NCBI GenBank assembly: GCA_963749445.1
Contig: CAVVMJ010000007.1
Coordinates: 9,971-73,970, forward strand
Direction: 5' to 3'
Length of the DNA: 64,000 nucleotides
DNA from: an uncultured bacterium
Lineage (GTDB): Bacteria; Patescibacteriota; Doudnabacteria; UBA920
Both the position numbers and the translations under genes were made by a program. The notes under the pieces were generated by a model. The model made no database searches. It was not told the origin of the DNA and worked only from the letters and a program-made list of their open reading frames with translations. Position 1 is the first letter of the stretch; each line of letters starts with the position of its first letter. Shown here one piece after another: positions 1,798-27,888 of the stretch.

Positions 1798-1810
1798 GAG
1801 AGATAGACTG

Positions 1811-2788
1811 ATGACTCGTCACACACCCACATCCGCTGCACCGCCGCCGGCACCACCCGTGGCAACCGCACCGGCACCCCTCGCACCCGCAGTCATCCCG
1901 GCACAGGCACCCCTCGCACCCGCCACAATTCCGATCCCGGGAGGACACCACCTTAGCGACAAAACTTTGGTGACACTCGACATCCTCGTTGGAATCATCA
2001 CCGCTCTGTTCGGCCACGAAATCGGCCGCCAAGCGGGAAAGTGGTTCCAGGGAGCCAAACGCGGCTTGCAACAGATCGGTACGCCCGGGACAGCAACCGG
2101 GGTCACCATCTCAGGCAACGCACCCGCTCACATCGACCCCACCATCCATAGCGCCCTCCTAGGCATTGGACCGTGGGACGAAGCCGCCACTGGCATGACG
2201 CTGGGTGCTGCTTTCCGGCGGGCATTTCAACGCTTGTTGGAAGCAACCGGCACGCCAATGGAAGCGCCCATCCGCGCCGCGCTTGCCCAGCTGGAACAGA
2301 CTGTCGGCTTCATCGCCAACAAGCTCAACCAGCACCAGCGCGACTTCCTCCGCGAAGTCGTCGGCAAGCTCAAGACGGCTGAACTCCAGAACCTCTTCTG
2401 GCAGGACTTGGTCCTCGCCAGCAAGGACGAAACCGGTTTCATAAACTTTATGAAGGCAATGGGGATCGTCCACGAGCCGAACGAACTCACCCAGGAACTC
2501 GCGATTGCTATTGCCTATGGTTTCGAGCAGGCGAATGTGATCCGGGTCCAAATGGTGACCACGCTCACAGTTCGCTACGACGCCCGTTCCGACGCTGCCA
2601 GACAGCGCTGGTTCACCGCACATGGGCAACTCGCTCAAGGGCAGCCCGTTCAACAAAACGCGACGCCGTTCTGGCGCCGCCGCACGATATGGCTCGTCAT
2701 TGGACTGGCCATTCTGGCAGTGGCTCTATTTCTAGGCCTGCCCCACATCTACCTCAACCTTCGAAATTGGGAATGGAGTTGGAAATGA
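1811..2788 (+). CDS. hypothetical Pro/Ala-rich protein with C-terminal TM anchor
   Basis: ATG 1811 is preceded by AGGAGA (1794-1799). Has an N-terminal tract SAAPPPAPPVATAPAPLAPAVIPAQAPLAPATIPIP, a hydrophobic segment LVTLDILVGIITALFG and a C-terminal TM TIWLVIGLAILAVALFLGL. Stop TGA 2786-2788 overlaps the next start (ATGA). Confidence 0.6.
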   Translation: MTRHTPTSAAPPPAPPVATAPAPLAPAVIPAQAPLAPATIPIPGGHHLSDKTLVTLDILVGIITALFGHEIGRQAGKWFQGAKRGLQQIGTPGTATGVTISGNAPAHIDPTIHSALLGIGPWDEAATGMTLGAAFRRAFQRLLEATGTPMEAPIRAALAQLEQTVGFIANKLNQHQRDFLREVVGKLKTAELQNLFWQDLVLASKDETGFINFMKAMGIVHEPNELTQELAIAIAYGFEQANVIRVQMVTTLTVRYDARSDAARQRWFTAHGQLAQGQPVQQNATPFWRRRTIWLVIGLAILAVALFLGLPHIYLNLRNWEWSWK

Positions 2789-4197
2789 CGAATCTAGGAA
2801 GAATCGGAAGGTCGATCGGCACAATGGTGTCCGGTCTGGAAGCGAGGATTTTGGGCTGGATTAGCGCTCATGTCTCGCTAACGCCGCGCGCCTTCGGCAC
2901 GTGGCTTGACGAACACAATTTCATCCGGCTGGAAAACGGCGCGCCTGTCACGGACTACGCCGGTTTCTTCCGCTGGACACGCAACTCGCTCCTGTCCCTG
3001 ATGGCACTGACTTTATTGCTCGAAGCCTACACCATAGTCATCGGGACATTCAACAACACCCCGCTCGGCCTCGGCATAAGCTTAGGTTTCGGTGTGGCAG
3101 TGTTCGGCATCGCGTCGGTGGTCTGGATTTGGAGGACCATCGGCCGCGTCAACGAAGGCTTGGCCTGGATTTTCACTCTGGCCACTGCCACCCTTGCCCT
3201 AATTGGCTTAGGGACTCCGACTTACCAGTACTACGCCGCGGGGAACCTCGCCAAACTTTCGGCAAAAGATATCCAAAATCTGATCGCGGCAGGCATTCCG
3301 CGAATCTGGGCTATGGCGGGCTTTTGCCTGCTCAGCCTGATCGTTCTTCCGCTTACCTGGATGACCACTCTGGGGCCCGCCCTGCTGTCCCTGGCTTTCG
3401 CCAAGACGGCAGAAGGTCTGGAAACGGCGTGGACAGAAATCCGGAAAATATTCTCGCACGATAGGGAAGTAGCGGAAGCCGCTGCGGAAAACCTCCGCAA
3501 GCGGACAGAAACACAGACCGGCCTGCTCATGCTCACATGGGCGATCCTGGCGCTGTTTACTCTCTCTATTATTCTCTCGTCCACGGTCTGGGGGCCTTTC
3601 GGCGGCTTGGTCATCGGTATGACCGCAATCGTGCCGGTATGGATACGACGGTGGAATATGTTCTTGGGAACTTTCTTAACCAAGGCACTCTACGGCGTAG
3701 CCACAGGAGGGCTGATCTTTATCTGCTTCCTGTACGGCCTTTCACTCTCGGCCTTGATGCTGATTCCCGACCAAATTTCGCTCAACGCACTGCTAGTAAT
3801 CAAGTGGGCCAGCTTCCTAATCGGTCTCGCTTCGGCAGTTGGAGTGTTGTTTACCTCCACCACGGCCAGCAAACAGAACGAACTGGAAGCCGGCATGGGG
3901 GAAATTCAGCCCTACACCAGAAAGGTCACGGGTTTCGGGACTGATGGGCAGCCGATTTTTGAAGCTGTTCACCCCAAACCGACGTCCTTCGCCTGGGTCA
4001 AGCCCACGGTCTTCGGTGCTGTTGTCATCGCTCTGGTTGCCTATGTGCACTACAACGGCAACCCGCTTTCCGGCACCAGCCCGCTCAAGCTGGTCGCTTA
4101 CACAATGGTTGTCGGCTTGATCCTTATTCTCTTTGGGATCTTTTCCGGCGGCAAGACGCAAGCCACCCCTACACAGGAGGTGCGCCATGACCACTAG
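2785..4197 (+). CDS. polytopic integral membrane protein, unknown family
   Basis: The track ORF starts at 2689, but ATG 2785 forms an ATGA overlap with the upstream stop and has GGAG at 2775-2778. About ten hydrophobic helices, e.g. LLSLMALTLLLEAYTIVIG, LGISLGFGVAVFGIASVVWIW, GLLMLTWAILALFTLSIILS, AYTMVVGLILILFGIF. Confidence 0.65.
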   Translation: MTNLGRIGRSIGTMVSGLEARILGWISAHVSLTPRAFGTWLDEHNFIRLENGAPVTDYAGFFRWTRNSLLSLMALTLLLEAYTIVIGTFNNTPLGLGISLGFGVAVFGIASVVWIWRTIGRVNEGLAWIFTLATATLALIGLGTPTYQYYAAGNLAKLSAKDIQNLIAAGIPRIWAMAGFCLLSLIVLPLTWMTTLGPALLSLAFAKTAEGLETAWTEIRKIFSHDREVAEAAAENLRKRTETQTGLLMLTWAILALFTLSIILSSTVWGPFGGLVIGMTAIVPVWIRRWNMFLGTFLTKALYGVATGGLIFICFLYGLSLSALMLIPDQISLNALLVIKWASFLIGLASAVGVLFTSTTASKQNELEAGMGEIQPYTRKVTGFGTDGQPIFEAVHPKPTSFAWVKPTVFGAVVIALVAYVHYNGNPLSGTSPLKLVAYTMVVGLILILFGIFSGGKTQATPTQEVRHDH

Positions 4198-4771
4198 GAA
4201 AAAGTGCATCGTCATCGGCACTTTAATCGTCGGCGCAGCAGCCGCTGTGCTCCTCGGCTATTACGTAGGCATTGGCAAGTACGCGCCCAGCGAACAGGCG
4301 GCCTACAACCGCCTTCACGCGGCGAACAACTGGGAGTTTGAGGGGAAAACAAGCGATGTTGAAGACAAGCAAGTTCCCCTCGCCGACAAGGTTGCTCAAG
4401 TCAACGTCCTAGCCGTGCAAAAACGCACTCTGGACGCGCAAATCGGCCACCCGGAGCTGACCAACTGCCGGACGCAACCCGGCAAGGACAAGGACGGCAA
4501 GCCAATACTGGTGTCCGAGCCGTGCCCCGGCGGCGTCTCCGCGGCAATCTACAGGGGCAAAGAGGCCGTCATAACGGTCCAGCTCCTAACTTACAGCAAC
4601 GACGAACTCCCGCTCAATGTCGCACCGACCCTCGTCGGCGACGAGCAACTCGGTGGGACAGCAGTACCCCTGGGCAACAACCGGTTCCGCGTGTCGGGAC
4701 TGGTGTATGACCAGGAAAAAATCGCCGGCGGATACAAGATTCGCGTTACGCCGGAAGGAGGAGGAAACTAA
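4187..4771 (+). CDS. N-terminally membrane-anchored protein, unknown family
   Basis: The track ORF starts at 4133. ATG 4187 has AGGAGG at 4175-4180 and overlaps the upstream stop (4195-4197). Anchor CIVIGTLIVGAAAAVLLGYYVG is followed by a soluble domain of about 170 aa. Confidence 0.6.
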   Translation: MTTRKKCIVIGTLIVGAAAAVLLGYYVGIGKYAPSEQAAYNRLHAANNWEFEGKTSDVEDKQVPLADKVAQVNVLAVQKRTLDAQIGHPELTNCRTQPGKDKDGKPILVSEPCPGGVSAAIYRGKEAVITVQLLTYSNDELPLNVAPTLVGDEQLGGTAVPLGNNRFRVSGLVYDQEKIAGGYKIRVTPEGGGN

Positions 4772-16486: not shown

Positions 16487-18799
16487 TTAATCACCTTTGG
16501 TCAGCCTAATCCTAAAAAGAGATTTTAAATGGTTCTGATATAATTCCTTATATTTAAAAGCTTTTTTTGCATCTAGAATTATAATTTGTTTCAATTTGGC
16601 TGTATAAAAAAATCGCAGTAAACTTTGAAAGTCATACATGCTCCGCGGCAAGAAAAACTCCCTATCCGGATCAGCAGACTTTTGAGCCAAAGCTTTGCTA
16701 TAAGGATCAGCTACTTTCATACTTGGCCACTGCGAAAAAATGACGGTTTTTGCCTGCAATTGGGCCACCGGCTGGACCTGCTGGACGGAGCGCAAAAAAT
16801 TTAAAACCCCGCTGCTGCTTATTAAAAGCAAGCTGTCTTTATGGATACTGAAATTGCGGAACAGTCTGTTGCTTCCTCCGCCGCTGCGTTCAACCAATAA
16901 AAACGCGCGCTTTTTCAGTTCTCCGTAATATTCTTTGTAAAGCTTCGTAATTTCCGCCGGCGAGTCAAACACCATTACTGCCGGCAAGTCGGCTTTGCTT
17001 AAAATTTTGACGGGATTTGAATCGACGGCCGGCGTAATCCGGCAAATCGGCTGATGATGCAGAATTCCGACTAATTTGCTTCGTAATTTTTTTACCGGCC
17101 ATGGTATCAAAGAAAATTTCCCCATACCGAGGCGATTAATAAAATAGTCGAGCGCGACTTGTTCTCCTTGCGGTTCAATGACGCAAACCTTTTCAAAGCC
17201 TGAAAAACTTTTGCCAACGATGCCGCCAATATCTAGCGGCAAGGAATGGAAACTGCAGGAACGCTCCCCAAAACTTATCCATTTTACTTCCGTAGGCCTA
17301 TCCTCAAAAAAATCCTTGAGGTTACTGGCAAAGTCCGTGAGGCTTTGGAGCTTTAAACTTTGGTTTGCCGATGATAACTTTTCCGTAAAATTTTCCGCGG
17401 CACTCATAATCTTTAAAAATTCTTCGGAATTTCTTAATTCATCCGTTACGCTCACTTCGCCCCAGCCTTTGTTAAATTTTAACAATAGCGCGTTGGTCAA
17501 ACCAAAAAATAAATCCGCGTCCGAAAGCAATCGGCTGATAATATCTCTATATTCGGCATCGCCAAAGCCGGTTTCCGGATCGTAAACGGTTTTTAATAAA
17601 TAAGATAAAAAGCCCCAGCTGCTGCGCTGCCCAATAGTAGCCGTGATTACGGCCTCAAAATCACCAAGACCGATAACAATCAGGCCGCGCTGGCGGAATA
17701 GCTCGGAACTTTTCAATTCTAAAAAAGTTTGCTGGTCGCAACATAACACCCTATCGGGTAATTTCTCCGGCAGTTGCCGGCCTGAAACCAAACCCTGAAA
17801 CTGACCGCCGAAAAATGACAGATTCAAATCCAACAAGCACTCCGTTTGCCAATTTGTGGCCTGCCAAACCAAAAGCTTCATTAAAAACCTAGCCTGCTCC
17901 GGATTTTGGATGTCCTGATGAAGCAGTACTTCAAATTTTTGGCGGTCAAACATATGCCGCGGCTGGAAAATTCCCCGCGCCAAATTTTGCCGCCATGTTT
18001 CCAAAACCTGATAGCGCTTGGGTACCACAATCAGCAGTCGCTCGGCTGTCCGGCTGACAATTTGCCCGATAATATCCTCAACGGGAACAAAAGGGTCAAC
18101 GATGTAAACCGTTTTGTCCTGCATAACAACAGAGCCCAAGCGTGATTTAGCCACTGATATTTTTTTGACTGGTTTGGCTGGCTCTAATTTGTAGGGTTTG
18201 ATTTTTGCTTTTAACAAATCCGACCACGGAGCCTTGACGCGTTCCGCCAGTCCGGTAATCTGGGTCTTAGCTTCGTTGGGCAAACTTTGATAAACGCCGA
18301 GCAGCCGCTCCAGCAACTCCATGGATGCCATGGCGTCCGCCAAAGCGCGGTGCGCGTTTTTGTGCGAAATTTTAAAAATACTCGCCAAATTTTCCAAATT
18401 GTAACTATGATGCGTAGGCAGCAAAAACTGCACCAAGTCCATAGTGTCAATTACCGGCCCGAAAAATTTTATGCCGCACTTTTGCAAAAACTTAATGTCA
18501 AAACCCACGTTATGCCCAACTATCGCCGCCGTCCCCAGCTTCCCCTGCAAAAAAAACAGCTCGTCCGAAATCGCGCCGCCTTTTTCTAGGTCGGCTGATG
18601 TGAGTCCAGTCAGTCCCAAAACATGGTGCGACACCTCGCCCTTTGGCTTAAACACCCTGTCCCATTTTTCAACAATCCGAAATCCGAAATCCGAAATCCG
18701 AAATCCGGCTATCCCCACTTCCAAAATCTCATTGGTTACCGGGTCAAACCCGCTCGTCTCAATATCCAAGCTGTAATAAATTTTTTCTTGATTTGCCAT
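16487..18799 (-). CDS. DnaQ-like 3'-5' exonuclease fused to a DinG-like C-terminal region
   Basis: DEDDh motifs YYSLDIETSGFDP, GHNVGFDIKFL and HRALADAMA. About 560 aa follow in which I see no Walker A. ATG 18799 (MANQEK) avoids overlap with the upstream TrmB gene (the track start 18844 overlaps it). Confidence 0.75.
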   Translation of the reverse strand: MANQEKIYYSLDIETSGFDPVTNEILEVGIAGFRISDFGFRIVEKWDRVFKPKGEVSHHVLGLTGLTSADLEKGGAISDELFFLQGKLGTAAIVGHNVGFDIKFLQKCGIKFFGPVIDTMDLVQFLLPTHHSYNLENLASIFKISHKNAHRALADAMASMELLERLLGVYQSLPNEAKTQITGLAERVKAPWSDLLKAKIKPYKLEPAKPVKKISVAKSRLGSVVMQDKTVYIVDPFVPVEDIIGQIVSRTAERLLIVVPKRYQVLETWRQNLARGIFQPRHMFDRQKFEVLLHQDIQNPEQARFLMKLLVWQATNWQTECLLDLNLSFFGGQFQGLVSGRQLPEKLPDRVLCCDQQTFLELKSSELFRQRGLIVIGLGDFEAVITATIGQRSSWGFLSYLLKTVYDPETGFGDAEYRDIISRLLSDADLFFGLTNALLLKFNKGWGEVSVTDELRNSEEFLKIMSAAENFTEKLSSANQSLKLQSLTDFASNLKDFFEDRPTEVKWISFGERSCSFHSLPLDIGGIVGKSFSGFEKVCVIEPQGEQVALDYFINRLGMGKFSLIPWPVKKLRSKLVGILHHQPICRITPAVDSNPVKILSKADLPAVMVFDSPAEITKLYKEYYGELKKRAFLLVERSGGGSNRLFRNFSIHKDSLLLISSSGVLNFLRSVQQVQPVAQLQAKTVIFSQWPSMKVADPYSKALAQKSADPDREFFLPRSMYDFQSLLRFFYTAKLKQIIILDAKKAFKYKELYQNHLKSLFRIRLTKGD
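18677..18707. repeat. tandem heptamer (CCGAAAT) x4 inside the exonuclease CDS
   Basis: ccgaaat x4 (18677-18704) plus ccg. Encodes GFRISDFGFRI between exonuclease motifs I and II. Confidence 0.9.
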
Positions 18800-18809
18800 A
18801 ATTGTTACT

Positions 18810-19547
18810 TTAGGCAGGTAAACTGATTTGCCAAAGCGCTTCAAATAAGTAACCCAAATTCTGGTTCAGCTCCGCGCTTTCAACAATCATGCCAAAATTT
18901 TCTTTTGTTGAAGAAATAATCCCAACTTTATCGTCATAGATATATAAGGTCATGGCAAAAATCATATTTGCTGGGGCGTAACGCAATAACCTTAATTCAG
19001 AAGGGTCGGTCGGCCAAGTTTCTTTTACATCTTTTTGCTTGCTTCTAACAACCCTCAAAGCATAACCTGATTTAATTCTCCGCGCAACATATTCTTTCAT
19101 AAATCTTTCGCCGGGGATTTTAAATAAGTCAACTATCGATAACACGCCTCTTATATTTTTGTCCGGGGTTGAAATTGTATCTTCTAAAACCGTTTTAATT
19201 CCCTCCACTCCTTCGTAAAAAGAAGTTTTCGGCTTAGACTTTAAAGTATTGTAAACAGACTTAAGTTCCGGCAACAAGCTGTCAAAAGTTCGTTGTTTTT
19301 CGGCCAAATTCCGTTTAATTTTTTCCGGGTCATTGGCGATATAATACCGGACTTTATGTTTTTCATATGCCCCCACTAATCCTTCTTCCGCGAGTTTTTC
19401 CAAAAGATCGTAGGCAGTCGGCCTGGCCACCTTGGCTCTCAAAGCAATCTCGTGGGCCTTGGCCTGCCCCATTTCCAAAAGCGCCAAATAAACCCGCGCT
19501 TTTTTATCGTCCAAACCGAATTCCTTTAAGTCTTCTTTTAATGCCAT
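18810..19547 (-). CDS. TrmB-family transcriptional regulator
   Basis: From MALKEDLKEFGLDDKKARVYLALLEMGQAKAHEIALRAKVARPTAYDLLEKLAEEGLV (TrmB-type wHTH) plus a C-terminal domain. The track start 19685 adds an AT-rich, implausible leader. Confidence 0.8.
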   Translation of the reverse strand: MALKEDLKEFGLDDKKARVYLALLEMGQAKAHEIALRAKVARPTAYDLLEKLAEEGLVGAYEKHKVRYYIANDPEKIKRNLAEKQRTFDSLLPELKSVYNTLKSKPKTSFYEGVEGIKTVLEDTISTPDKNIRGVLSIVDLFKIPGERFMKEYVARRIKSGYALRVVRSKQKDVKETWPTDPSELRLLRYAPANMIFAMTLYIYDDKVGIISSTKENFGMIVESAELNQNLGYLFEALWQISLPA

Positions 19548-19718
19548 AAAATTGCGTTTACGATGCTTTTTTGATATTTGTCGAAACTTTTCGACTACAT
19601 AAATATTATATAATAATGCCTTATTTATGTCAACTATTGATAATAAAACTGTTATTAGTCGAATATTATTAACATCGTACGACAAAACTGTTATGCTTGC
19701 AGATTATAAGGAGGAAGT

Positions 19719-20102
19719 ATGCGCTTTGAATCCCAACAGACTACACACGGTCTACCGACAGTTGCCATCGACGACTTCGAAAAGCTCGGCAAAGGAGAGC
19801 TTCTCTGGTTTTTCCTTTTACGGATACAACGCCGCTGGAGACCATGGACTAACCGACGTCTTATGAGAGTTAGCTCAGACAATGGTGTGGTGTTCGTCAA
19901 CAACTTTCTTAACAGATTGCCGAAAGAACTGATTTGCTCCGGGGGTGAGGGAACCCACGGTCTGATCTGCAAAGGTGATGACGGCAAAATAAACGTGCTC
20001 TTGGGCTCTTGGGGGCCAGAACTTTCACTCCCCCTTGCGAAACAGGCTGTTCAGTTGCTGTCCGAAGCCGGCCTACCAGCCAAAATCTTCGGAAAAGAAT
20101 AG
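19719..20102 (+). CDS. hypothetical protein (SD-bearing orphan divergent from TrmB regulator)
   Basis: ATG 19719 has AGGAGG at 19709-19714. 127 aa with no recognisable family. Followed by a strong terminator. Confidence 0.5.
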   Translation: MRFESQQTTHGLPTVAIDDFEKLGKGELLWFFLLRIQRRWRPWTNRRLMRVSSDNGVVFVNNFLNRLPKELICSGGEGTHGLICKGDDGKINVLLGSWGPELSLPLAKQAVQLLSEAGLPAKIFGKE

Positions 20103-20138
20103 CCTCCAATCCCTGCCGTCTGCCACTAAAAAACGCAA

Positions 20139-20208
20139 AACCGCCCCGGGCAACCTGTCCTCCGTAGCTTTATGCGGAGGAGGGATGCGAAGGGCGGTTG
20201 TTTTTTTA
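20139..20208 (+). terminator. compound rho-independent terminator
   Basis: Outer stem AACCGCCC (20139-20146) / GGGCGGTT (20192-20199), inner CCTCCG/CGGAGG, then GTTTTTTT. Confidence 0.65.
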
Positions 20209-20214
20209 TACATT

Positions 20215-20478
20215 TTACGGTTTATATTCCAGCCCAATCTTGGAGCCGGCTTTTGTAATCCAATTTTCTGTGGTCGTGACTCTGCTGTTTACAACCAAAA
20301 TTTCATCGGCATTTTTCTTTGTGCCAACCGCAAAGGATTCCACGGACGCTTGGAGGTTATTAAAATCCTTGCGCTGACCTTCAAACTTTTCATCCATTTC
20401 CAGCTTATCGTAAAATAACTGTTTGTTGGCCTCAATCACCTTATTCACAATTTTAGTTGTGTCTTCGTCGGTAATCAT
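20215..20478 (-). CDS. hypothetical small protein
   Basis: 87-aa ORF MITDEDTTKIVNKVIEANKQLFYDKLEMDEKFEGQRKDF..., co-oriented with and downstream of recA. No family recognised. Confidence 0.5.
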   Translation of the reverse strand: MITDEDTTKIVNKVIEANKQLFYDKLEMDEKFEGQRKDFNNLQASVESFAVGTKKNADEILVVNSRVTTTENWITKAGSKIGLEYKP

Positions 20479-20486
20479 ATACGCGG

Positions 20487-20660
20487 CTATTTATTTTTTG
20501 GTTTTTCGATTAAATGATGACTATTTAAAAATCTTATTACGGGCTTGCCGCAATTCAAACAAAAAGTTAAACTAGACAGTTTGCCCGGGGGAGCGACATT
20601 AACTTCCTTGTTATAATCTTTAATTTGCTTTTTACAAATATCACATTTTGTAACATGCAT
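20487..20660 (-). CDS. small zinc-ribbon protein (57 aa, below ORF-track cutoff)
   Basis: Hand translation: MHVTKCDICKKQIKDYNKEVNVAPPGKLSSLTFCLNCGKPVIRFLNSHHLIEKPKNK*. Has CxxC...CxxC pairs. Sits between recA and the 87-aa ORF on the same strand. Confidence 0.5.
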   Translation of the reverse strand: MHVTKCDICKKQIKDYNKEVNVAPPGKLSSLTFCLNCGKPVIRFLNSHHLIEKPKNK

Positions 20661-20728
20661 ATGATTTTATTTTAAGGCTTGGGATAAAATCATAAACCCA
20701 AGAAAACTTTCCGTCAACTGTGGAAAAC

Positions 20729-21832
20729 TTATTCCGCCGCGTCTTCTTCCTCGGCCGGCTTGGCGGCCACAACGACTTCGCTTTCTTTGACGCGCTTACG
20801 CACTTCGGCATCTATTTCTTTAAAAACTTTGGGAGTTTCTTTAAGGAAAGCTTTGGCATTCTCGCGGCCCACGCCCAATTTAACGTCTTTGAACATAAAC
20901 GTGTTGCCGTTCTTTTCTATGGCGCCAATTAACACGCCGGTATCCAGCAAATCGCCGGAAGCGGAAATGCCTTCGTTGTACATAATGTCAAATTCCGTGG
21001 TGCGGAAAGGCGGCGCCACTTTGTTTTTGACGACTTTGACCTTAACGCGGTTGCCCACAACCTTGTCGCCGTTTTTGATTTGCGCCGACCGGCGGACTTC
21101 TATCCTGATTGAAGCGTAAAACTTAAGCGCGTTGCCGCCGGTGGTGGTTTCCGGATTACCGAACATCACGCCGATCTTCATACGGATCTGGTTAATGAAT
21201 ACCACGGTGGTCTGAGTTTTGCTGATGATAGCCGTAAGCTTGCGCAAAGCCTGCGACATTAGCCGCGCGTGCAAGCCCATATGGCTGTCGCCCATTTCGC
21301 CCTCAATTTCGTTGCGCGGGGTCAGCGCGGCCACGGAATCAATCACGATTAAATCCAAGCCGTTTGAGCGCACCAAAGTTTCGCAAATATCCAAAGCCTG
21401 CTCGCCGTTGTCCGGCTGGCTAATCAACAAATCTTCCAGTTTGACGCCGATGCGCTTGGCATACTCCGGATCCAGCGCGTGCTCGGCGTCTATAAACGCG
21501 GCGAGTCCCCCGCGCTTTTGCACTTCCGCGATCATATGCAAGGTCAAAGTGGTTTTGCCCGAACTTTCCGGACCGTAAATTTCAATGACGCGGCCTTTGG
21601 GAAAACCGCCCACGCCCAGAGCCAAATCCAAAGAAATGGAACCCGTGGGAATGGAAGCCACGTCCATAGTTCTGGAATCAGACAACTTCATGATGCTGCC
21701 AGCGCCGAACTTTTCCTGGATTTGGTCCATGGCGCTGGTCACGGCCTTCCATTTGCCTGTCTCGGGCTTAGCCGAGGAACCGGAATCCGCCGGCGCGGTT
21801 TTTGGTGTTGGTTTGGTCATAAATTTGCTCAA
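20729..21832 (-). CDS. recA: recombinase RecA
   Basis: [20 protein letters not shown] (Walker A), [17 protein letters not shown], and an [31 protein letters not shown]2 region. Confidence 0.97.
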
Positions 21833-22014
21833 ATTCTAATTTCTAAAGCCTAAAATCTAAACAATATTCAAATCCCAAATTTTCAAAGTTTAAACTGTTT
21901 GATATTTTGGGTTTTAGAGTTTGTTTAAAATTTAGCGTTTCGATTTTAGATTTTAATGATTACTTATATAGTATACAATCGTTCACCATATGTCAAATAA
22001 TCCCTGTGGATAAT

Positions 22015-22968
22015 TCACGGCGCGCTGCTGGTAGCGGTATTTTCCGCGGTAAACGGGATATCGGACAGCTGTTCGCCTCGGCGGCCGAGCGGCCCCAGGC
22101 GCTGGCCGTTCAAAGTGGCCGCGGTGGCGCCGGCATTGCTGGTGGAAATGACGATTTTATTCTGGCCCGTCAATGTTTTGACGTCGCCGGCATGAAAAGA
22201 AATCTGCTGAGACGGGCTGTTATCAATAGCGTAGGTTAAACTGCCGTCAGCGGAAAATTCCAATTTTAAACTGACCTGGTTGGGGGAGCTCGGCAAGTCC
22301 GCCTGGCCGATTACCGACATTTTTGCCGCAGCGGTTTTGCCCATCTTGTTATCGGCCACAATGTTAATTTCCTCAGGGCCTGGCTTTAAGCTGAGCTGGG
22401 TCTGAAAATTCCCGCCGCTGTCCACGAACACGCTCTGCCCGTTTACGGTCACGCTGGAGCCCGAATCGGTTTGGCCGCGCACGTTGACAAAAGAATCCTT
22501 AATAATTTGCCCGTCACGCGGCTGGAAAATTTCCAACGACGGAGTTTTATTAATGGATAAAACTTGCCAAACAATATAGAGCAATGTCAGGGCCACAAAC
22601 AAGCTGCCTACCGTGATGCTCAAAACTTTCGGCGTTATCACCAGCTTGCCAAAATGACGGCCCGCCCAGCTCTTACGGACAGCGGTGGAACGCTGCATTT
22701 GGTTGGCAATGGCCTTTTCTTTTTTGTACTGGCTGATCAGCGCCAAGCCGTCCACGGCATACAGTTCGGCCAGCTGGCGCAAAAATCCAAACACATAGAC
22801 ATCAGGAGGCAAAGCGTTAAACTCGCCGGCTTCTAAGGCCCGCAAAAATTCCAGTCTTATCCCAGTCTGCCCGGCGGCGGTCTCCACGGACAGCCCATGT
22901 CCGCTTCTTATGGCTGACAGATATTCGCTTAGGGTTTCGGCCTGGATTTTTTTCTTTTCAAAAGACAC
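22015..22968 (-). CDS. RodZ-like HTH/transmembrane protein
   Basis: N-terminal HTH TLSEYLSAIRSGHGLSVETAAGQTGIRLEFLRALEAGEF, a single TM VLSITVGSLFVALTLLYIVW, and a beta-rich C-terminal domain. Confidence 0.7.
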   Translation of the reverse strand: MSFEKKKIQAETLSEYLSAIRSGHGLSVETAAGQTGIRLEFLRALEAGEFNALPPDVYVFGFLRQLAELYAVDGLALISQYKKEKAIANQMQRSTAVRKSWAGRHFGKLVITPKVLSITVGSLFVALTLLYIVWQVLSINKTPSLEIFQPRDGQIIKDSFVNVRGQTDSGSSVTVNGQSVFVDSGGNFQTQLSLKPGPEEINIVADNKMGKTAAAKMSVIGQADLPSSPNQVSLKLEFSADGSLTYAIDNSPSQQISFHAGDVKTLTGQNKIVISTSNAGATAATLNGQRLGPLGRRGEQLSDIPFTAENTATSSAP

Positions 22969-23050
22969 AAATTAATTGAACAAGATTGACATGATTGATC
23001 AAGATTGACAAGATTGCCATTCCCAAATCATGCTCAATCTTTTAATTCTT

Positions 23051-25276
23051 TTAAATCTTGTCAATCTCTTCTATTCCATACTCCGCCTTCTCATCCCGCG
23101 GCACTACCCCATAGACTTCCCTCGGTTTGGCTCCCTCGCCAGGGCCGATGATTCCTCTCCCTTCCAAAATATCCAAAACCCGCGCCGCGCGCGCGTAACC
23201 GATTTTCAAACGCCGCTGCAGCAGCGAGGCGCTGGCTTTGCCCGCGCGCCGCACTTCTGCTATGGCTTCTTCCAAAAGCGGCTCATCATCATCGCCTTCG
23301 CCTTCAAATCCGGGCACGCCAATTCCCCGCTTGGGCTTTTCCAATATCGCCTCATTATAAATAACCGCACCGGTCTGCTGCTTAAAAAAATCCACCACGC
23401 GCCTGACTTCTTTTTCGCCGACGAACGCGCCCTGGATACGCCGCGGCTTGTTGAATTCCGCGGAAATATAGAGCATATCGCCGTTGCCCAAAAGTTTTTC
23501 CGCGCCGCTACTGTCCAAAATGGTGCGGCTGTCAATCTGGCTGGCCACGGCAAAGGCAATGCGCGAGGTAATGTTGGCCTTAATCAAACCAGTGATAATA
23601 TCCACGGACGGGCGCTGGGTCGCCACCACCAAATGGATGCCCACGGCGCGCGCCATTTGCGCCAAACGCACAATGGCCGCTTCCACGTCGACCTGGGCCA
23701 CGGCCATCAAATCGGCCAACTCATCCACCAAAATCACAATGTACGGCAATTTCAAACTTATTGCTTCATTGTATTCAATGATGTTGCGCTTGTTGGCTTC
23801 GGACAAAAGTTTATAACGGCGGTCCATTTCGGCAACCGCCCACTTTAAGGCATTGACCGCTTTCTCATGGTCAATGACCACGGGCGTCAGCAAATGCGGG
23901 ATGCCGTTGTACAAATTCAGCTCCACCCTTTTGGGGTCAATGACAATAAATTTAACGTCCTGCGGCGTGTTGCGGTAAAGCAGCGAAATAAATAAAGAAT
24001 TGATGGCCACGCTCTTACCCGTGCCCGTGGCGCCGGCGATAAGCAAGTGCGGCATCTTGGCCAAGTCCGCCACCATGGGCCGGCCGGCCACGTCGCGGCC
24101 CAAAGCCATGGCCAGCTTGCTCTTGTGATCCACAAAATCTTTGGTCTGCATGACCTCGCGAAGGCGCACGATGGCCGTGGCTTTGTTAGGCACTTCAATG
24201 CCCACCAAGGCCTTGCCCGGGATCGGCAATTCCATGCGGATGCTGTGCGCGGCCAGGGCCAAAGCCAAATCGTTCTGCAAAGTGGCGATCTGCGACAATT
24301 TTACCCCCACTGTCGGCCGCAAAGTGTATTGCGTCACCGTAGGCCCGACATTAACCTCGCCCATTTCCACTTCAATGCCAAAATCCGCCAAAGTTTTTTT
24401 AATAATGGCCACATTGGCCTCAATGTTACCGCTGTCCACCGCGGTCTGGTTGTCATCCAACAAATCAAACGTCGGCAGTTTCCAGTCTTTGCGCTCCAGC
24501 GGCAGGGTTTCAATCTGCGGGCCTTTGGATTTTTGATTGGTGTTAATAACTGTGCCTTTGGGTTTTTCCGGCTCATCCTGTTCTTCCTCATCTCCAACAA
24601 TGGCCTGGTTTTTGCCGGCCACCTTTTCGCTCACAAACCCCTGCGTACCCATGGCATTAATCTTCAATGTAGGCAAAGCGGTTTGCGCGACCGCGGTTGA
24701 TTCGGCAGGCTCTTCTTTTGATTTAGAAAAGAACGCGCGCAGCGATATGTCAAAAGCAATTAAGATGCCAATGACCAATAAGGCAAATAGCACCAAACTG
24801 CCCGCCCAAAAACCCAAAAAATTATAGGCAGGCGAGGCAAAAATCGCGCCAAAATAACCGCCGGCGCGGCCCTGGGACGCCAAATCAAACGCGCTCGCGC
24901 CATTGCCCAAACTAAAAATATGGATTAACCCCGTAATGCCCCCAATCAGCAAAATCGCGCCAAGATAAGTCCGCGCATAAGCGCCGCGGTGCTCCAGCTG
25001 TTCATCCGTTTGCCGATAAAGCAGCACAGCCACCATAATCAAAAGCAGCGGCACAATGTAAACCATCACCCCGAACATTTGCGCCAAAAAGCCAAATAAA
25101 GACGCGCCGAAACTGCCGGCCAAATTTGCCAAACCGAGCAAACAAACAAGCGCCAAAACCACAAACACCACCACTACAATCCCGCGCTTGGTTTCGGCGG
25201 ATAAATTTAAAGTCGGCTTCTCGCGCCTTTTCTTGGCCTGCCTTTCTTCTTCCTTGTCTTTTTTGTTTCTCGCCAT
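23051..25276 (-). CDS. ftsK: DNA translocase FtsK/SpoIIIE
   Basis: N-terminal TM helices, Walker A LLIAGATGTGKSVAINS, VILVDELADLM, ATQRPSVDIITG, and a C-terminal gamma wHTH ASASLLQRRLKIGYARAARVLDILE. Confidence 0.95.
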   Translation of the reverse strand: MARNKKDKEEERQAKKRREKPTLNLSAETKRGIVVVVFVVLALVCLLGLANLAGSFGASLFGFLAQMFGVMVYIVPLLLIMVAVLLYRQTDEQLEHRGAYARTYLGAILLIGGITGLIHIFSLGNGASAFDLASQGRAGGYFGAIFASPAYNFLGFWAGSLVLFALLVIGILIAFDISLRAFFSKSKEEPAESTAVAQTALPTLKINAMGTQGFVSEKVAGKNQAIVGDEEEQDEPEKPKGTVINTNQKSKGPQIETLPLERKDWKLPTFDLLDDNQTAVDSGNIEANVAIIKKTLADFGIEVEMGEVNVGPTVTQYTLRPTVGVKLSQIATLQNDLALALAAHSIRMELPIPGKALVGIEVPNKATAIVRLREVMQTKDFVDHKSKLAMALGRDVAGRPMVADLAKMPHLLIAGATGTGKSVAINSLFISLLYRNTPQDVKFIVIDPKRVELNLYNGIPHLLTPVVIDHEKAVNALKWAVAEMDRRYKLLSEANKRNIIEYNEAISLKLPYIVILVDELADLMAVAQVDVEAAIVRLAQMARAVGIHLVVATQRPSVDIITGLIKANITSRIAFAVASQIDSRTILDSSGAEKLLGNGDMLYISAEFNKPRRIQGAFVGEKEVRRVVDFFKQQTGAVIYNEAILEKPKRGIGVPGFEGEGDDDEPLLEEAIAEVRRAGKASASLLQRRLKIGYARAARVLDILEGRGIIGPGEGAKPREVYGVVPRDEKAEYGIEEIDKI

Positions 25277-25406
25277 CTTTGTTGTTTCCCTTCTCCCCCT
25301 CTGGGGGAGATGTCCCGCCTTTGGCGGGACAGAGAGGGTGCATTAAATAAAATTAATCGATTATAATTTCTCGCCTCCCTATTTTACCATTTTTTTACCC
25401 GCCTTA

Positions 25407-26168
25407 CTAGCCTAAACTTTTCCAAATTAACTGGTACATCACCTTAACCACTTCCACTACCTCTTTGCTCTTTATTACCGCGGCAAAAGGCTTGTTTTCA
25501 AGATTCAAGATGGCCAGTTTGTCTTCATAAATAATAAAACCCGTTCCCACGCTTATTACCCCGGGCAAAATTTTCATTTCCCGCCACGGGGTTTTGGTTT
25601 TTTGCCATTCTTTCCCCAAAGCGAAAACCCCGGAATCCGTAATTATATAAATTTTTGGCCGGTCAGGATTGCCGCGCAAAGCCCAGGCCTCATTTAGGAT
25701 ATCCATTCTTTTTGATTTAACCAGTTTATCCAAAATTTTCGCGCCTGAGCCAAAAAAAAGCCAGGAAGTCGGGCACGCCGATATTTCCAAAGCGATATTT
25801 TTTAAGCCTTCCACCCCGGAATAAAAACTAACCTTTGGCTCTTCCGCGTATTGTTTAGGAAATTTAATAAGCCCGGGTAAAATACTTTCCAATAAAATTT
25901 CCGCATCAACAACCTGCCGCCGCATCCGCTTGGTCAGCTTTCCCAGCTTTTGCGGCTTTTCGGCTTCAAACAGCCTTTTCTTTCCGGCAAAACTTTCTAT
26001 AATCAACCCTTGTTTAATAAGATTCTCCAACGCCAAATAAACCGTCGGCCGCTTTATGCCTGACTGCTCCGATATTTGCCATGCCGATGAAGGCCCCAAA
26101 CTCAAAGCCGCCAAATAAACTTTGGCTTCGTGCTCACTTAACCCCAATTTTTGCAGTTCTTCTTCCAT
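25407..26168 (-). CDS. TrmB-family transcriptional regulator
   Basis: From MEEELQKLGLSEHEAKVYLAALSLGPSSAWQISEQSGIKRPTVYLALENLIKQGLI. Paralogous in architecture to 18810..19547. Confidence 0.8.
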   Translation of the reverse strand: MEEELQKLGLSEHEAKVYLAALSLGPSSAWQISEQSGIKRPTVYLALENLIKQGLIIESFAGKKRLFEAEKPQKLGKLTKRMRRQVVDAEILLESILPGLIKFPKQYAEEPKVSFYSGVEGLKNIALEISACPTSWLFFGSGAKILDKLVKSKRMDILNEAWALRGNPDRPKIYIITDSGVFALGKEWQKTKTPWREMKILPGVISVGTGFIIYEDKLAILNLENKPFAAVIKSKEVVEVVKVMYQLIWKSLG

Positions 26169-26329
26169 ATATATTTTGTCATCAAATTCTGACAACAATA
26201 ATATAACATAATCATTCAATGTTTGCAAGCAAGTTAATCCAATTTATATGAATTAGTCATAAAATATTGATCATAAATTCAATCGTATGGAATAATGACT
26301 AGTTGTAAACCTTAAGGAGGAAGAAAAAA

Positions 26330-27091
26330 ATGGAAATAAAGGAAATCTGCGAAGCGTACTCCGCGAGTGATGACGTCGCGTTGTTGAAAGCTTTGAACGA
26401 ATTCAGCCTTCGGCTGTCTTATTCTTGCCATTCGATTGGGCCAGCCGCCACGGCAATGCAGTTGCGCGAAACTCATCTGCTTGGGATCTTAAACAAGACC
26501 GCGGCTGAGGCAGAAGATAAGCCGGGGGGGTCTTTAGCTTTGGTAGTTGGACGCCTCTCCGCTTACATCCATTTTGTTGGACTAATCGCTGACCGTGAGC
26601 GTGTAGATTCGGTGGTCGCCCAGCTGTCTGATCTCCCTAACGCCGACTTGACTAACTTTTTCCTCAGAAATAGCTTCTGCCAAGGAGGACTGCGTCGTGA
26701 ACAGTTAGTTTACGCAGCCGCACGCTTTATCAAAGTCAAGGACGTTTTGGCGAGGTCTCGGTTCAGGCAACTTTTACGGATGGAGATGATTGAGTCATTC
26801 AAGGTGTACGAGACGCTGGAGGCGCAAGCGGAGGATCGGGCAGTGTTGCATTACAAGATAACCCATCTTGGCGAGGCAGTCCTGGAGCGCCTCATGCACC
26901 CGCACGAACTTGCGCTGTGGTTTGTAGATGAAGCGGCGTTTAATCCAGAACTGCGCGCCGCGATGAGGAACGAGATTAAACACACGTGGCCACTGGAAGA
27001 CCTGACGGTGCCTGACGCGGAACTACGCGCCATAACCGCAAGGCGGGATGAGATTAAACGCAAATGGTCATCAGATGAGCCGTCCGTCTGA
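26330..27091 (+). CDS. hypothetical protein (SD-bearing orphan divergent from TrmB regulator)
   Basis: ATG 26330 has AGGAGG at 26315-26320. 253 aa, helical, with a possible wHTH-like stretch RFRQLLRMEMIESFKVYETLEAQAEDRAVLHYKITHLGEAVLERL. No family recognised. Confidence 0.55.
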   Translation: MEIKEICEAYSASDDVALLKALNEFSLRLSYSCHSIGPAATAMQLRETHLLGILNKTAAEAEDKPGGSLALVVGRLSAYIHFVGLIADRERVDSVVAQLSDLPNADLTNFFLRNSFCQGGLRREQLVYAAARFIKVKDVLARSRFRQLLRMEMIESFKVYETLEAQAEDRAVLHYKITHLGEAVLERLMHPHELALWFVDEAAFNPELRAAMRNEIKHTWPLEDLTVPDAELRAITARRDEIKRKWSSDEPSV

Positions 27092-27130
27092 ACGGAATTA
27101 GGTTGTCCTGTTCGACGGGACAACCATCTT

Positions 27131-27174
27131 AAAACTGCCGGTACGCGTACCACGCCCCGGCAGTTTTTCTTTTG
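27131..27174 (+). terminator. rho-independent terminator
   Basis: ACTGCCGG (27134-27141) pairs with CCGGCAGT (27157-27164), followed by TTTTTCTTTT. Confidence 0.7.
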
Positions 27175-27290
27175 GTATTTTCACCCCTCCCTAACCCTCC
27201 CCCTCCAGGGGAGGGGAATAAAGAACGAAAAATCCCGCTCCGAATGGGGCGGGATTCCTATATGCTAATTACTAAATGCTATCTGCTAAT

Positions 27291-27888
27291 TACAAGCCCT
27301 TAACTTTAACCTTCTTCGTCTTCGCCTTCGCGGCCTTGGGGATTATTACCGTCAATATCCCGTCCTTCAAATCCGCCTCTATCTGCTCGCTGTCAATGTC
27401 TACCGGAATTATGACCGAGCGGGAAAATTGCCCCAGTAGCATTCCTGGTAAAAATAATCGTCCTGAACAATGGCTTCCTCTTTTTTGCGCGCGCCACGGA
27501 TAGTCACCATGTCGTTGGCCACGGTGATGTCAATGTCCTCGGGTTTGACGCCGGCAATGGTGGACTTGATAATCACGTTGTCCTTGGTCTGGTACATGTC
27601 TATGTTCAGCTGCCCTTCAAAATCCGACATCCATTCCTCGCCGCCGTTATTGTTGGCCCCGGCCGGAGCCACAACCGCGGGCTTGGCCGCCGCCGGAATT
27701 TCCGTAACCTGCTCCTCTATTAACACAGTTTCCTGCTCGTCGTCGTCGTCGGCATCGGCACCCAGCTCTTCGGCCTCCACAGTTTGCTGCGCCATGCCCT
27801 GTGAAACGCGCGGCTGTTGGATGTCTTCATCTGTCACACTGCCCCCCATAATTTTCCCGAAAAACGAAGCTCTGTCTTTCTTGGCCAT
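27291..27888 (-). CDS. Hsp20/alpha-crystallin small heat-shock protein, interrupted by a 1-nt frameshift as sequenced
   Basis: The track ORF ends ...VTIRGARKKEEAIVQDDYFYQECYWGNFPARS*. A second frame continues QFSRSVIIPVDIDSEQIEADLKDGILTVIIPKAAKAKTKKVKVKGL* to stop 27291-27293. Shift near 27412-27425. Confidence 0.8.

What the first reader, a model, noticed from the sequence alone, without database searches (positions are those of the whole stretch)
18810..20208. TrmB-like regulator divergently paired with an SD-bearing orphan gene (module A)
The TrmB gene (18810-19547, no SD) faces a 171-nt AT-rich control region containing:
- the inverted repeat GTCGAAA-CT-TTTCGAC (19580-19595);
- two AAAACTGTTAT direct repeats (19645-19655 and 19684-19694).

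Then comes TAAGGAGGAAG plus ATG 19719, opening a 127-aa gene of unknown function that ends in a strong compound terminator. The same layout recurs at 25407-27174, down to the TAAGGAGGAAG ribosome-binding site. The wHTH gene with the GC-rich operon at 1-4771 is a looser parallel. Strong SD sites are otherwise rare in this window, so the cargo genes look imported and placed under dedicated regulators.
Basis: partly seen in the sequence, partly recalled or inferred. Interest (0 to 1): 0.55.

Follow-up and report, generated by a model that had tools for sequence, protein, structure and literature searches.

The report
TrmB repressor socket with swappable cargo
A small regulator gene and its conserved two-way promoter act as a fixed "socket" that drives a different neighbouring gene in each related candidate-phyla bacterium; here that gene is a 127-residue protein of unknown function.

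Summary
Every coordinate is exact, and TAAGGAGGAAG occurs only twice in 64 kb, both times in front of a cargo gene. Only 3 of 66 genes in the window have a strong Shine-Dalgarno (SD) site.

Both regulators carry the TrmB winged-helix domain. The 127-aa ORF is a real gene (dN/dS 0.26-0.40) from a five-member orphan family with no detectable fold.

Across 19 related loci the control region is conserved:
- an operator O1 (GTCG-N8-CGAC) at the regulator's transcription start;
- a weaker operator O2 overlapping the cargo -35;
- two sigma-70 promoters;
- an SD for the cargo only.

The cargo itself changes between loci, with at least 11 unrelated families. This happens even at the same chromosomal position next to ftsK. 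Module B has the same architecture with a different half-site.

Most likely this is an autoregulated local repressor cassette that keeps an accessory gene silent until an unknown signal arrives.

- "Dedicated regulator" is supported.
- "Imported cargo" is not supported by composition, only by cargo turnover.
- The AAAACTGTTAT repeats and the inner part of the palindrome are not conserved.

The mechanism is ordinary. The plug-in architecture in an SD-poor genome is a new variant.

The parts
18810..19547 (-). TrmB-A regulator gene (245 aa). It has an N-terminal TrmB winged helix, a helical arm and a conserved ~140-aa C-terminal domain with the motif KENFGMI(I/V)ES. It has no SD. Its stop codon lies 10 nt upstream of the ATG (18799) of a DnaQ/DinG-like gene.
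   Evidence: Pfam PF01978, E = 1e-14. A profile of 18 clade members hits P. furiosus TrmB 3qph (3e-6) and TrmBL2 5bpd (6e-5). Orthologues are 76-81% identical in L001 and L002. No PF11495 sugar-binding domain was found.
19580..19595 (.). Operator O1, GTCGAAACTTTTCGAC. The conserved core is GTCG-N8-CGAC with a T-rich right centre. It lies 9 nt downstream of the regulator's -10, so it covers roughly +2 to +19 of the TrmB-A transcript.
   Evidence: It is present in 19/19 related loci at a fixed position next to the -10. It is the only GTCG-N8-CGAC in the window. The inner pairs are not conserved and there is no covariation.
19605..19633 (-). Promoter of TrmB-A: TTGACA (19633-19628), 17 nt, TATAAT (19610-19605).
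   Evidence: It is the only 12/12 consensus match in the 9.1 kb scanned. TGTCAA and the -10 are conserved in the alignment of 16 loci.
19658..19673 (.). Operator O2, GTCGAATATTATTAAC. It is a degenerate copy of O1 (nnCG-N8-TRAC). Its right half lies inside the cargo -35 hexamer.
   Evidence: A 16-mer ending in the -35 has CG at positions 3-4 in 17/19 loci and GTCG in 10/19. It always sits at the same register.
19669..19697 (+). Cargo promoter: TTAACA (19669-74), 17 nt, TG-n-TATGCT (19689-97).
   Evidence: Promoter scan. A -35 TTRACA, a 17-nt spacer and a -10 TAnnnT are conserved in 19 loci.
19645..19694 (+). Two exact AAAACTGTTAT direct repeats (19645-55 and 19684-94). The second overlaps the cargo -10.
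   Evidence: Both are exact in the window. They are not conserved in L001 or L002, so they are probably not functional units.
19707..19717 (+). Shine-Dalgarno site TAAGGAGGAAG. The AGGAGG core ends 4 nt before ATG 19719.
   Evidence: The motif has two copies in 64 kb, both at cargo genes. AAGGAGG-type SDs precede the cargo in about 15 of 17 related loci.
19719..20102 (+). Cargo A, a 127-aa protein from a five-member orphan family of unknown function. Public gene calls truncate it to 79 aa.
   Evidence: Orthologues are 67% identical, with dN/dS of 0.26-0.40 and an excess of third-position changes. Distant members are L010/P0014 and the second cargo gene of L014. No Pfam, NCBIfam, PADLOC or PDB hit. 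AF2 pLDDT is 40.
20127..20208 (+). Compound intrinsic terminator. A nested hairpin is flanked by an A-run and U7, so it probably works in both directions, including for the convergent 87-aa gene.
   Evidence: Folding gives -42.3 kcal/mol with z = -2.97.
25407..26168 (-). TrmB-B regulator (253 aa), a paralogue of TrmB-A.
   Evidence: PF01978, E = 1e-16. It is 24% identical to TrmB-A over the full length, E = 6e-26.
26177..26272 (.). Module B control region. O1-B is TGTCA-N8-TGACA (26177-94), next to the regulator's -10 (26200-05). O2-B is AGTCA-N8-TGATC (26255-72), overlapping the cargo -35 TTGATC (26267-72).
   Evidence: Both sites are conserved in L001, L004 and L006.
26313..27091 (+). SD TAAGGAGGAAG (26313-23) and cargo B (26330-27091, 253 aa). 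Cargo B has a helical N-terminal domain and a PadR/MarR-like winged helix at residues 105-177.

Best explanation
Module A is a self-contained, autoregulated expression cassette from a candidate-phyla (Parcubacteria-like) bacterium.

Proposed mechanism:
- A TrmB-family one-component regulator is transcribed leftward from a consensus sigma-70 promoter.
- As a dimer it binds the operator GTCG-N8-CGAC (O1), which sits on its own transcription start. This limits its own synthesis.
- It also binds a weaker copy (O2) whose right half lies inside the -35 of the rightward cargo promoter. This keeps the cargo off.
- An unknown signal, read by the conserved C-terminal domain, releases the protein.
- The cargo mRNA has a short unstructured leader and a near-perfect SD, which is exceptional in this SD-poor genome. 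It is then translated efficiently and ends at a strong terminator.

The regulator together with its control region is the conserved unit, or 'socket'. The gene plugged into it differs between related genomes. In this genome the cargo is a 127-aa orphan protein of unknown biochemical function.

Shown:
- the gene identities;
- that the cargo ORF is coding;
- conservation and positions of the promoters, operators and SD;
- cargo turnover.

Inferred:
- that TrmB-A binds O1 and O2;
- the sign of regulation (repression);
- the existence of an effector.
For: - TrmB domain in both regulators, with a profile match to solved TrmB and TrmBL2.
- A 12/12 consensus promoter for the regulator, with O1 directly after its -10.
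- O1, O2, both promoters, the 17-nt spacers and the cargo SD are conserved in 16-19 loci whose regulators are 41-81% identical.
- O1 is anchored to the promoter, not to the start codon. The O1-to-ATG distance varies from 6 to 35 nt.
- The cargo promoter is near-consensus on its own, so it needs repression rather than activation.
- Known TrmB proteins bind palindromes such as TACT-N7-8-GAGTA. They repress when the site lies at or after the core promoter or transcription start (PMC4158304).
- Paralogous module B has the same geometry with a different half-site, GTCA.
- Each palindrome is unique in the 64 kb.
- There are at least 11 unrelated cargo families under orthologous regulators.
- Cargo replacement occurs at one syntenic site upstream of ftsK-rodZ-like-recA: a 127-aa orphan in L001, a receiver-like protein in L011, and a radical SAM gene plus a cargo-A homologue in L014.
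- Cargo A has dN/dS of 0.26-0.40.
- SD census.
Against: - There is no binding or expression data. The operator assignment rests only on conservation and position.
- The inner palindrome positions are not symmetric in most loci. O2 is degenerate.
- No effector can be named. The C-terminal domain does not match the TrmB sugar-binding domain PF11495.
- In this window the regulator is followed after 10 nt by a DnaQ/DinG-like gene. It may therefore also drive that gene.
- Other operator copies elsewhere in the genome cannot be excluded.
- The biochemical function of cargo A remains completely unknown.
Confidence: 0.6

Rival explanations
1. TrmB-A activates the cargo promoter rather than repressing it. 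Bound at O2, just upstream of and overlapping the -35, it would recruit RNA polymerase in the manner of a class II activator. At the same time it would repress its own promoter at O1.
For: The strong half-site of O2 lies upstream of the -35. Archaeal TrmBL1 and Tgr activate when their site lies upstream of the core promoter (PMC4158304).
Against: The cargo promoter already has TTRACA, a 17-nt spacer and TAnnnT, often with an extended TG. It should therefore be active without help. The weak half of O2 occupies the -35 hexamer itself, which favours occlusion.
Confidence: 0.15
2. The inverted repeat acts as a 5'-terminal RNA stem-loop that stabilises or regulates the regulator's mRNA, and is not a DNA operator.
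For: The leader folds into a 6-bp hairpin in the window (-6.7 kcal/mol, z = -1.96) and in L001. L001 carries an apparently compensatory A-to-G / T-to-C change.
Against: Across 19 loci only 4 outer pairs are kept. Pairs 5-7 are broken in 8-11 of the loci. Covariation is no better than in shuffles. A related half-site recurs at the cargo -35 on DNA that is not part of that transcript.
Confidence: 0.08
3. The modules are cassettes of a defence or host-interaction island. On this view TrmB-A plays the role that BrxR/CapW-type regulators play next to variable defence systems. The cargo, including the orphan, would then be immunity or effector genes that are induced on attack.
For: - One conserved regulator has many unrelated cargoes.
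- Modules cluster in a variable ftsK-hsp20 interval together with HicB and GIY-YIG genes.
- Cargo A diverges fast: 26% identity where the regulators are 80% identical.
- The radical SAM cargo gives a weak pVip hit.
Against: - PADLOC finds nothing for cargo A or B.
- The pVip and viperin scores are far below the cut-offs and are generic radical SAM similarity.
- Some cargoes are plainly metabolic, such as argininosuccinate synthase and a solute-binding protein.
- No relatives were found in viral collections.
Confidence: 0.12
4. There is no dedicated link. TrmB-A is a general regulator that merely sits beside a recombination hot spot, and the neighbouring gene has an independent constitutive promoter.
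For: The regulator's downstream neighbour and its chromosomal position vary. Only 64 kb of this genome could be searched for further operators.
Against: The spacing and register of O2 relative to the cargo -35 are kept in 19 loci, whatever the cargo. Both palindromes are unique in the window.
Confidence: 0.05

Closest known systems
Archaeal TrmB / TrmBL1 / Tgr and Halobacterium TrmB (VNG1451C)
   Same: - The same N-terminal winged-helix family (PF01978) followed by a helical arm.
- Palindromic operators with short half-sites. TACT-N7-8-GAGTA is the nearest in geometry to GTCG-N8-CGAC.
- Repression when the site lies at the core promoter or transcription start.
- Autoregulation has been proposed.
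- Control of an adjacent operon, as with the TM operon (PMC4158304).
   Different: - This is a bacterial sigma-70 context.
- The protein is about 245 aa and lacks the sugar-binding EBD (PF11495 not detected).
- The C-terminal domain is a distinct, highly conserved ~140-aa module.
- The half-site sequence differs.
- The targets are not sugar genes but a changing set of unrelated genes.
Classical divergent repressor-target pairs (TetR/tetA and PadR/MarR-type local regulators)
   Same: - A divergent gene pair shares one intergenic region with back-to-back promoters.
- Operators overlap both promoters.
- Autoregulation occurs together with repression of the neighbouring gene.
   Different: - The regulator belongs to a different family.
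- The regulated gene is not functionally tied to the regulator. It is exchanged between close relatives while the regulator and operators stay the same.
BrxR/CapW (WYL-domain) regulators next to diverse defence systems (comparison from my own knowledge of that literature, not tested here)
   Same: One conserved local repressor family is found upstream of many unrelated cargo systems, in variable genomic islands.
   Different: There is no WYL domain. No recognised defence genes occur among the cargoes, and no evidence links the module to DNA damage or phage.
Integron gene cassettes
   Same: Single-gene cargo units are exchanged at a fixed platform that supplies the promoter. In L001 and L002 a conserved structured element follows each cargo.
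   Different: - No integrase or attC was seen in the loci read.
- Each cargo has its own regulator and promoter copy.
- The 3' repeats look like ordinary terminators and are absent from the window.

Membership tests
TrmB family of transcription regulators | N-terminal TrmB-type winged helix-turn-helix (Pfam PF01978) | tested here: met
   Scores are 54.6 bits (cut-off 25.6) for 18810-19547 and 61 bits for 25407-26168. A clade profile hits TrmB 3qph and TrmBL2 5bpd as the best PDB sequences.
TrmB family of transcription regulators | Helical dimerisation arm after the wHTH | tested here: inconclusive
   The profile alignment to TrmBL2 extends over query positions 8-143, which includes the arm. 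No structure model of the regulator was made.
TrmB family of transcription regulators | C-terminal sugar/effector-binding domain (Pfam PF11495), as in TrmB sensu stricto | tested here: not met
   No PF11495 hit at E <= 0.1. NCBIfam TrmB, TrmBL1 and TrmBL2 equivalog scores are 15-42 bits against cut-offs of 500-650. These are TrmB-domain proteins, not orthologues of any named TrmB.
TrmB family of transcription regulators | Palindromic operator at the regulated promoter | tested here: met
   This is in silico evidence only. GTCG-N8-CGAC lies at the regulator's transcription start in 19/19 loci, and a degenerate copy lies on the cargo -35. Binding was not tested.
TrmB family of transcription regulators | Release from DNA by a sugar effector | not testable with these tools
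   This needs biochemistry.
Known anti-phage defence systems (PADLOC) | Cargo or regulator matches a defence-system protein model | tested here: not met
   Cargo A and B give no hit. The regulator matches only the HTH part of the Csa3/CasR models. The radical SAM cargo gives a generic 36.7-bit pVip hit and scores 20-30 bits against the NCBIfam viperin cut-off of 180.
Integron cassettes | Tyrosine-recombinase integrase and attC sites flanking cassettes | not tested
   No integrase-like gene appears among the called genes of L001, L002, L004 or L006. No dedicated attC search was run.

The most novel reading that the evidence does not exclude
In Parcubacteria-type CPR genomes, TrmB-A/B-like regulators would form a family of plug-and-play expression sockets. 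The regulator, two operators, two promoters and an SD form a fixed platform. Accessory genes are exchanged into it by recombination between the conserved 5' control region and terminator-like 3' elements. SD-dependent translation would be reserved largely for these inducible accessory genes, in genomes whose core genes initiate without an SD. The 127-aa orphan family would be one such fast-evolving accessory function, sometimes partnered with a radical SAM enzyme.
Probability: 0.3. Interest if true: 0.7.

Novelty: new variant of a known kind. Interest (0 to 1): 0.5.

Why it matters
CPR/Patescibacteria have tiny genomes, few regulators and almost no experimental genetics. A conserved regulator, operator and promoter unit that recurs with interchangeable cargo would matter in four ways.
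- It would be the first inferred cis-regulatory code for this group (operator GTCG-N8-CGAC together with sigma-70 promoters).
- It would point directly to the accessory genes these organisms switch on under some common signal.
- It would offer a natural inducible expression cassette for future genetic tools.
- The near-exclusive use of strong SD sites on cargo genes, in a genome that otherwise lacks them, bears on how translation initiation works in Parcubacteria. The anti-SD motif was detected in only 48% of Parcubacteria 16S rRNAs (PMC9297842).

The finding also corrects a public gene call, in which cargo A is truncated to 79 aa.

Tried and rejected
Function of cargo A:
- Pfam, NCBIfam and PADLOC gave nothing.
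- PDB sequence-profile searches with 4- and 5-member profiles gave nothing.
- AlphaFold2 on a 3-sequence alignment gave pLDDT 40, which is unusable, so no fold search was run on it.
- Exhaustive HMM search of 1.84 billion representatives returned only the known orthologues plus three tandem-repeat proteins. Reading their sequences showed these to be spurious.
- A second word-indexed search with the widened alignment added only P0014.

Other tests that led nowhere or were rejected:
- RNA element: no Rfam match at E <= 1 in 18500-27600. The cargo 5'UTR is not structured.
- RNA hairpin reading of the IR: rejected, because the pair counts show no covariation.
- Direct repeats as operators: rejected, because they are not conserved.
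- 'Imported' by composition: rejected.
- Phage or mobile origin: no relatives in IMG/VR or INPHARED.
- The L001/L002 terminator and palindrome repeats are absent from the window.
- A mixed TrmB-A/B/C alignment was too divergent for the locus finder.
- The afdb50 fold library was unavailable.
- The source organism could not be named from the cluster look-ups. The closest named relative of the regulator is in a Candidatus Doudnabacteria MAG.
- No paper in the library mentions TrmB together with CPR, Patescibacteria, Parcubacteria or Saccharibacteria.
Full report
OBSERVATION

Reading 18600-20400 confirms every coordinate in the finding.
- The regulator ORF runs from ATG 19547 down to stop 18810 on the minus strand.
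- The spacer is 171 nt (19548-19718).
- GTCGAAA-CT-TTTCGAC lies at 19580-19595.
- AAAACTGTTAT lies at 19645-55 and 19684-94.
- TAAGGAGGAAG lies at 19707-17.
- The cargo ORF runs from ATG 19719 to stop 20102.

TAAGGAGGAAG, and even the 8-mer TAAGGAGG, occurs exactly twice in the 64 kb. The copies are at 19707 and 26313, each in front of a cargo ORF. The 3' element folds into a nested hairpin of -42.3 kcal/mol (z = -2.97) followed by U7. The second module at 25407-27174 has the same layout. Its regulator ATG is at 26168.

THE GENES

Both regulators carry the TrmB winged helix (PF01978; 54.6 and 61 bits against a cut-off of 25.6). They are full-length paralogues at 24% identity, E = 6e-26. A profile of 18 clade members finds P. 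furiosus TrmB (3qph) and TrmBL2 (5bpd) as the best solved relatives.

The TrmB sugar-binding domain PF11495 is not detected. NCBIfam equivalog scores are far below their cut-offs. These are therefore TrmB-domain proteins of a distinct bacterial clade, with a very conserved C-terminal domain (motif KENFGMIIES).

Cargo A (127 aa) and cargo B (253 aa) are unrelated to each other. Neither has a Pfam or NCBIfam match.

Cargo A is a real gene.
- Two orthologues are 67% identical and have exactly the same length.
- Changes are concentrated at third codon positions (52 against 29 and 24).
- dN/dS is 0.26-0.40.
- Public gene calls split or truncate it into 79-aa pieces. The conserved N-terminal 48 residues show that this is an annotation error.

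CONTROL REGION

The promoter scan finds one perfect sigma-70 promoter on the minus strand: TTGACA 19633-28, a 17-nt spacer, TATAAT 19610-05. A plus-strand promoter reads TTAACA 19669-74, a 17-nt spacer, TG-n-TATGCT. The palindrome begins 9 nt after the regulator's -10, so it lies on the transcription start.

I recovered relatives of the regulator without reference to their neighbours.
- Three loci came through cargo A.
- One came from a Candidatus Doudnabacteria MAG.
- Twenty-four came from metagenome contigs.

Sixteen intergenic regions were aligned, and 19 loci were scanned by motif. The regulators in these loci are 41-81% identical to TrmB-A. Every locus has the same series of elements:
- the regulator start;
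- O1, G[TA]CG-N8-YG[AT]C;
- the motif TACA;
- the regulator's -10 and -35 (TGTCAA on the plus strand);
- a variable spacer;
- a 16-mer, nnCG-N8-TRAC, whose last four bases lie inside the cargo -35 TTRACA;
- a 17-nt spacer;
- TAnnnT;
- usually AAGGAGG;
- the cargo ATG.

I call the second site O2 (19658-19673 in the window). It is a degenerate copy of O1 placed on the cargo -35.

O1 keeps its distance to the promoter but not to the start codon, where the distance varies from 6 to 35 nt. A pair count over 19 O1 sequences shows that only the outer GTCG/CGAC is kept. Inner pairs are broken in 8-11 loci, and covariation equals that of shuffles. The conserved feature is therefore a DNA sequence, not an RNA helix. 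The perfect 7-bp palindrome of the window is a local peculiarity.

The AAAACTGTTAT repeats are not conserved, even in the closest orthologues.

O1-to-O2 distances fall into classes of 67, 78-79, 88-92 and 145 bp. These steps of about 11 bp hint at helical phasing. Because the loci are related, they amount to only about four independent observations.

Module B repeats the whole geometry with a different half-site. O1-B is TGTCA-N8-TGACA at 26177-94, next to the regulator's -10. O2-B is AGTCA-N8-TGATC at 26255-72, on the cargo -35. Both are conserved in three other loci. Each palindrome is unique in the window.

CARGO TURNOVER

Behind this constant platform the first cargo gene differs between loci.

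| Cargo | Loci |
|---|---|
| 127-aa orphan family | window, L001, L002, L010 |
| Radical SAM | L014, L015, L018 |
| Haem-oxygenase-like / CADD-like | L009, L016 |
| Receiver-like proteins (three) | L012, L024, L026 |
| 98-aa zinc-ribbon-like protein | L017 |
| 170-aa unknown | L020 |
| Sigma-r4 plus alpha-CTD fusion | L022 |
| Argininosuccinate synthase | L023 |
| 185-aa unknown | L025 |
| Nothing, or a 16-codon ORF | L021, L032 |

That makes at least 11 unrelated families among 16 loci.

Synteny shows replacement at one chromosomal site. In L001, L011 and L014 the regulator (70-76% identical to TrmB-A) lies directly upstream of ftsK-rodZ-like-recA. Yet it faces the orphan, a receiver-like gene, and a radical SAM gene respectively.

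Modules also move and accumulate.
- L001 carries three TrmB-cargo modules and a hicB between ftsK and hsp20.
- L010 also carries three modules there.
- In the window that interval holds only module B. Module A lies on the other side of recA.

SD USAGE

Of the 66 ORFs in the window, 29 show no SD complementarity at any plausible start. Only three reach 8 nt: cargo A, cargo B and the ATG near 4187 in the GC-rich operon. recA, ftsK, hsp20 and both TrmB genes have A/T-rich, SD-less leaders.

In 96 kb of related loci there are only about 25 SD-led ORFs. Most of them are TrmB cargoes or later genes of cargo operons, including cargoes of other TrmB paralogues.

The literature reports that the anti-SD motif was detected in only 48% of Parcubacteria 16S rRNAs (PMC9297842). 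No rRNA lies in the window, so the anti-SD of this organism could not be checked.

WAS THE CARGO IMPORTED?

Composition does not say so.
- Cargo A and B have 51% and 53% GC, like recA and ftsK at 53%.
- The TrmB genes are the low-GC outliers at 38% and 42%.
- Regulator and cargo A have diverged in step, at 72-75% against 73% nucleotide identity.

The evidence for exchange is comparative, not compositional.

WHAT THE CARGOES ARE

Cargo A belongs to a five-member family. The L010 protein P0014 aligns over its full length (hhalign E = 8e-5). A 152-aa ORF in L014 links both subgroups, at 46% and 25-27% identity (hmmsearch E = 6e-22). The L014 member has its own SD and follows the radical SAM gene in the same operon. 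That is the only functional hint.

Nothing else was found in 5.8 billion clustered proteins or 1.84 billion representative proteins. The extra hits are tandem-repeat artefacts. No family, defence or PDB match exists, and the AF2 model is unusable at pLDDT 40.

MECHANISM

The best explanation is an autoregulated local repressor.
- A TrmB-A dimer on O1 blocks its own promoter at the transcription start.
- A dimer on O2 occludes the cargo -35.
- An unknown signal, read by the conserved C-terminal domain, relieves both.
- The SD then gives strong translation of the cargo only.

Positions and conservation are shown. Binding, the sign of regulation and the effector are inferred. They agree with what is known of archaeal TrmB proteins, which bind palindromes such as TACT-N7-8-GAGTA and repress when bound at or after the core promoter (PMC4158304).

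The rivals are activation from O2, an RNA hairpin, a defence-island role, and no dedicated link. Each is weighed in the rival section.

COMPARISON AND NOVELTY

A divergent repressor-target pair is ordinary, and TrmB-domain membership is clear. Three things are not described in the searchable literature (no paper joins TrmB with CPR, Patescibacteria, Parcubacteria or Saccharibacteria):
- this bacterial TrmB clade;
- its operator and promoter code;
- the socket-like exchange of unrelated cargo under one conserved regulator, coupled to near-exclusive SD use in an SD-poor genome.

I rate it a new variant of a known kind, of moderate interest.

Noticed in passing
window 18674-18707: A perfect heptanucleotide tandem repeat, AATCCGA x 4.9, lies inside the 5' part of the DnaQ/DinG-like gene (16487-18799, minus strand). 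There it encodes FRISDFGFRI. A unit of 7 nt is not a multiple of 3, so gain or loss of a copy would shift the reading frame. It may be a slippage switch.
   Followed up: partly
window 23051-27888; L001 1-7638; L010 900-7744; L012; L004; L006; L007: The interval between ftsK and hsp20 is a variable region in this lineage. It holds one to three TrmB-cargo modules, plus a hicB antitoxin gene in L001 and a GIY-YIG-like ORF in L010. The window has only module B there.
   Followed up: partly
L001 2257-2359, 4596-4702, 6852-6903; L002 1-40 and 1410-1450: In L001 and L002 each cargo unit ends with the same ~50-nt terminator, CCTGTACCAGAAATCCGCAAGGATGnCTGGTACAGG followed by a T-run. It is often followed by a 44-nt perfect palindrome, AAAATTACGGAAATAG..CTATTTCCGTAATTTT. 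Both are absent from the window. They could be recombination handles for cassette exchange.
   Followed up: partly
L014 1031-1486 (minus strand): A 152-aa homologue of cargo A, with its own SD (ACAAGGAGG), follows the radical SAM cargo gene in the same operon. This suggests a functional link between the orphan family and a radical SAM enzyme.
   Followed up: partly
window 19719-19743; L001 1800-1824; L002 969-993: The first 25 nt of the cargo A ORF are identical in all three orthologues, although synonymous divergence elsewhere is about 0.8-0.9. This implies a nucleotide-level constraint at the translation start.
   Followed up: no
L003 948-1423 (same sequence as window 19627-20102): Public gene calls split cargo A into two 79-aa ORFs, and the NCBI/ENA record keeps only the C-terminal 79 aa (P0003). 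The conserved SD-led 127-aa frame is the real gene.
   Followed up: yes
L021 (upstream of 1250) and L032 (upstream of 915): These two sockets have the conserved operators and cargo promoter but no normal cargo. L021 has about 60 nt followed by a terminator. L032 has an SD-led 16-codon ORF, MVKSKSPEMLEDLTSL.
   Followed up: no
window 1-4771: A Crp-like HTH gene (1-573, minus strand; PF13545, 3.5e-6) lies 555 nt from a four-gene operon with 55-61% GC. The operon's proteins have no Pfam match. Its last gene carries the window's third strong SD (AGGAGGTG before the ATG near 4187).
   Followed up: partly
window 22975-23016: A tandem repeat, ATTGACAAG x 4.4 (or a 19-nt unit x 2.2), lies in the short spacer between the rodZ-like gene start and the ftsK stop. 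It contains repeated TTGACA-like hexamers.
   Followed up: no
window 18799-18812: The TrmB-A stop codon lies only 10 nt upstream of the ATG of the 770-aa DnaQ/DinG-like gene on the same strand, with no terminator between them. In this genome the regulator's autoregulated promoter may also feed that gene. This linkage is absent in L001, L011 and L014.
   Followed up: no
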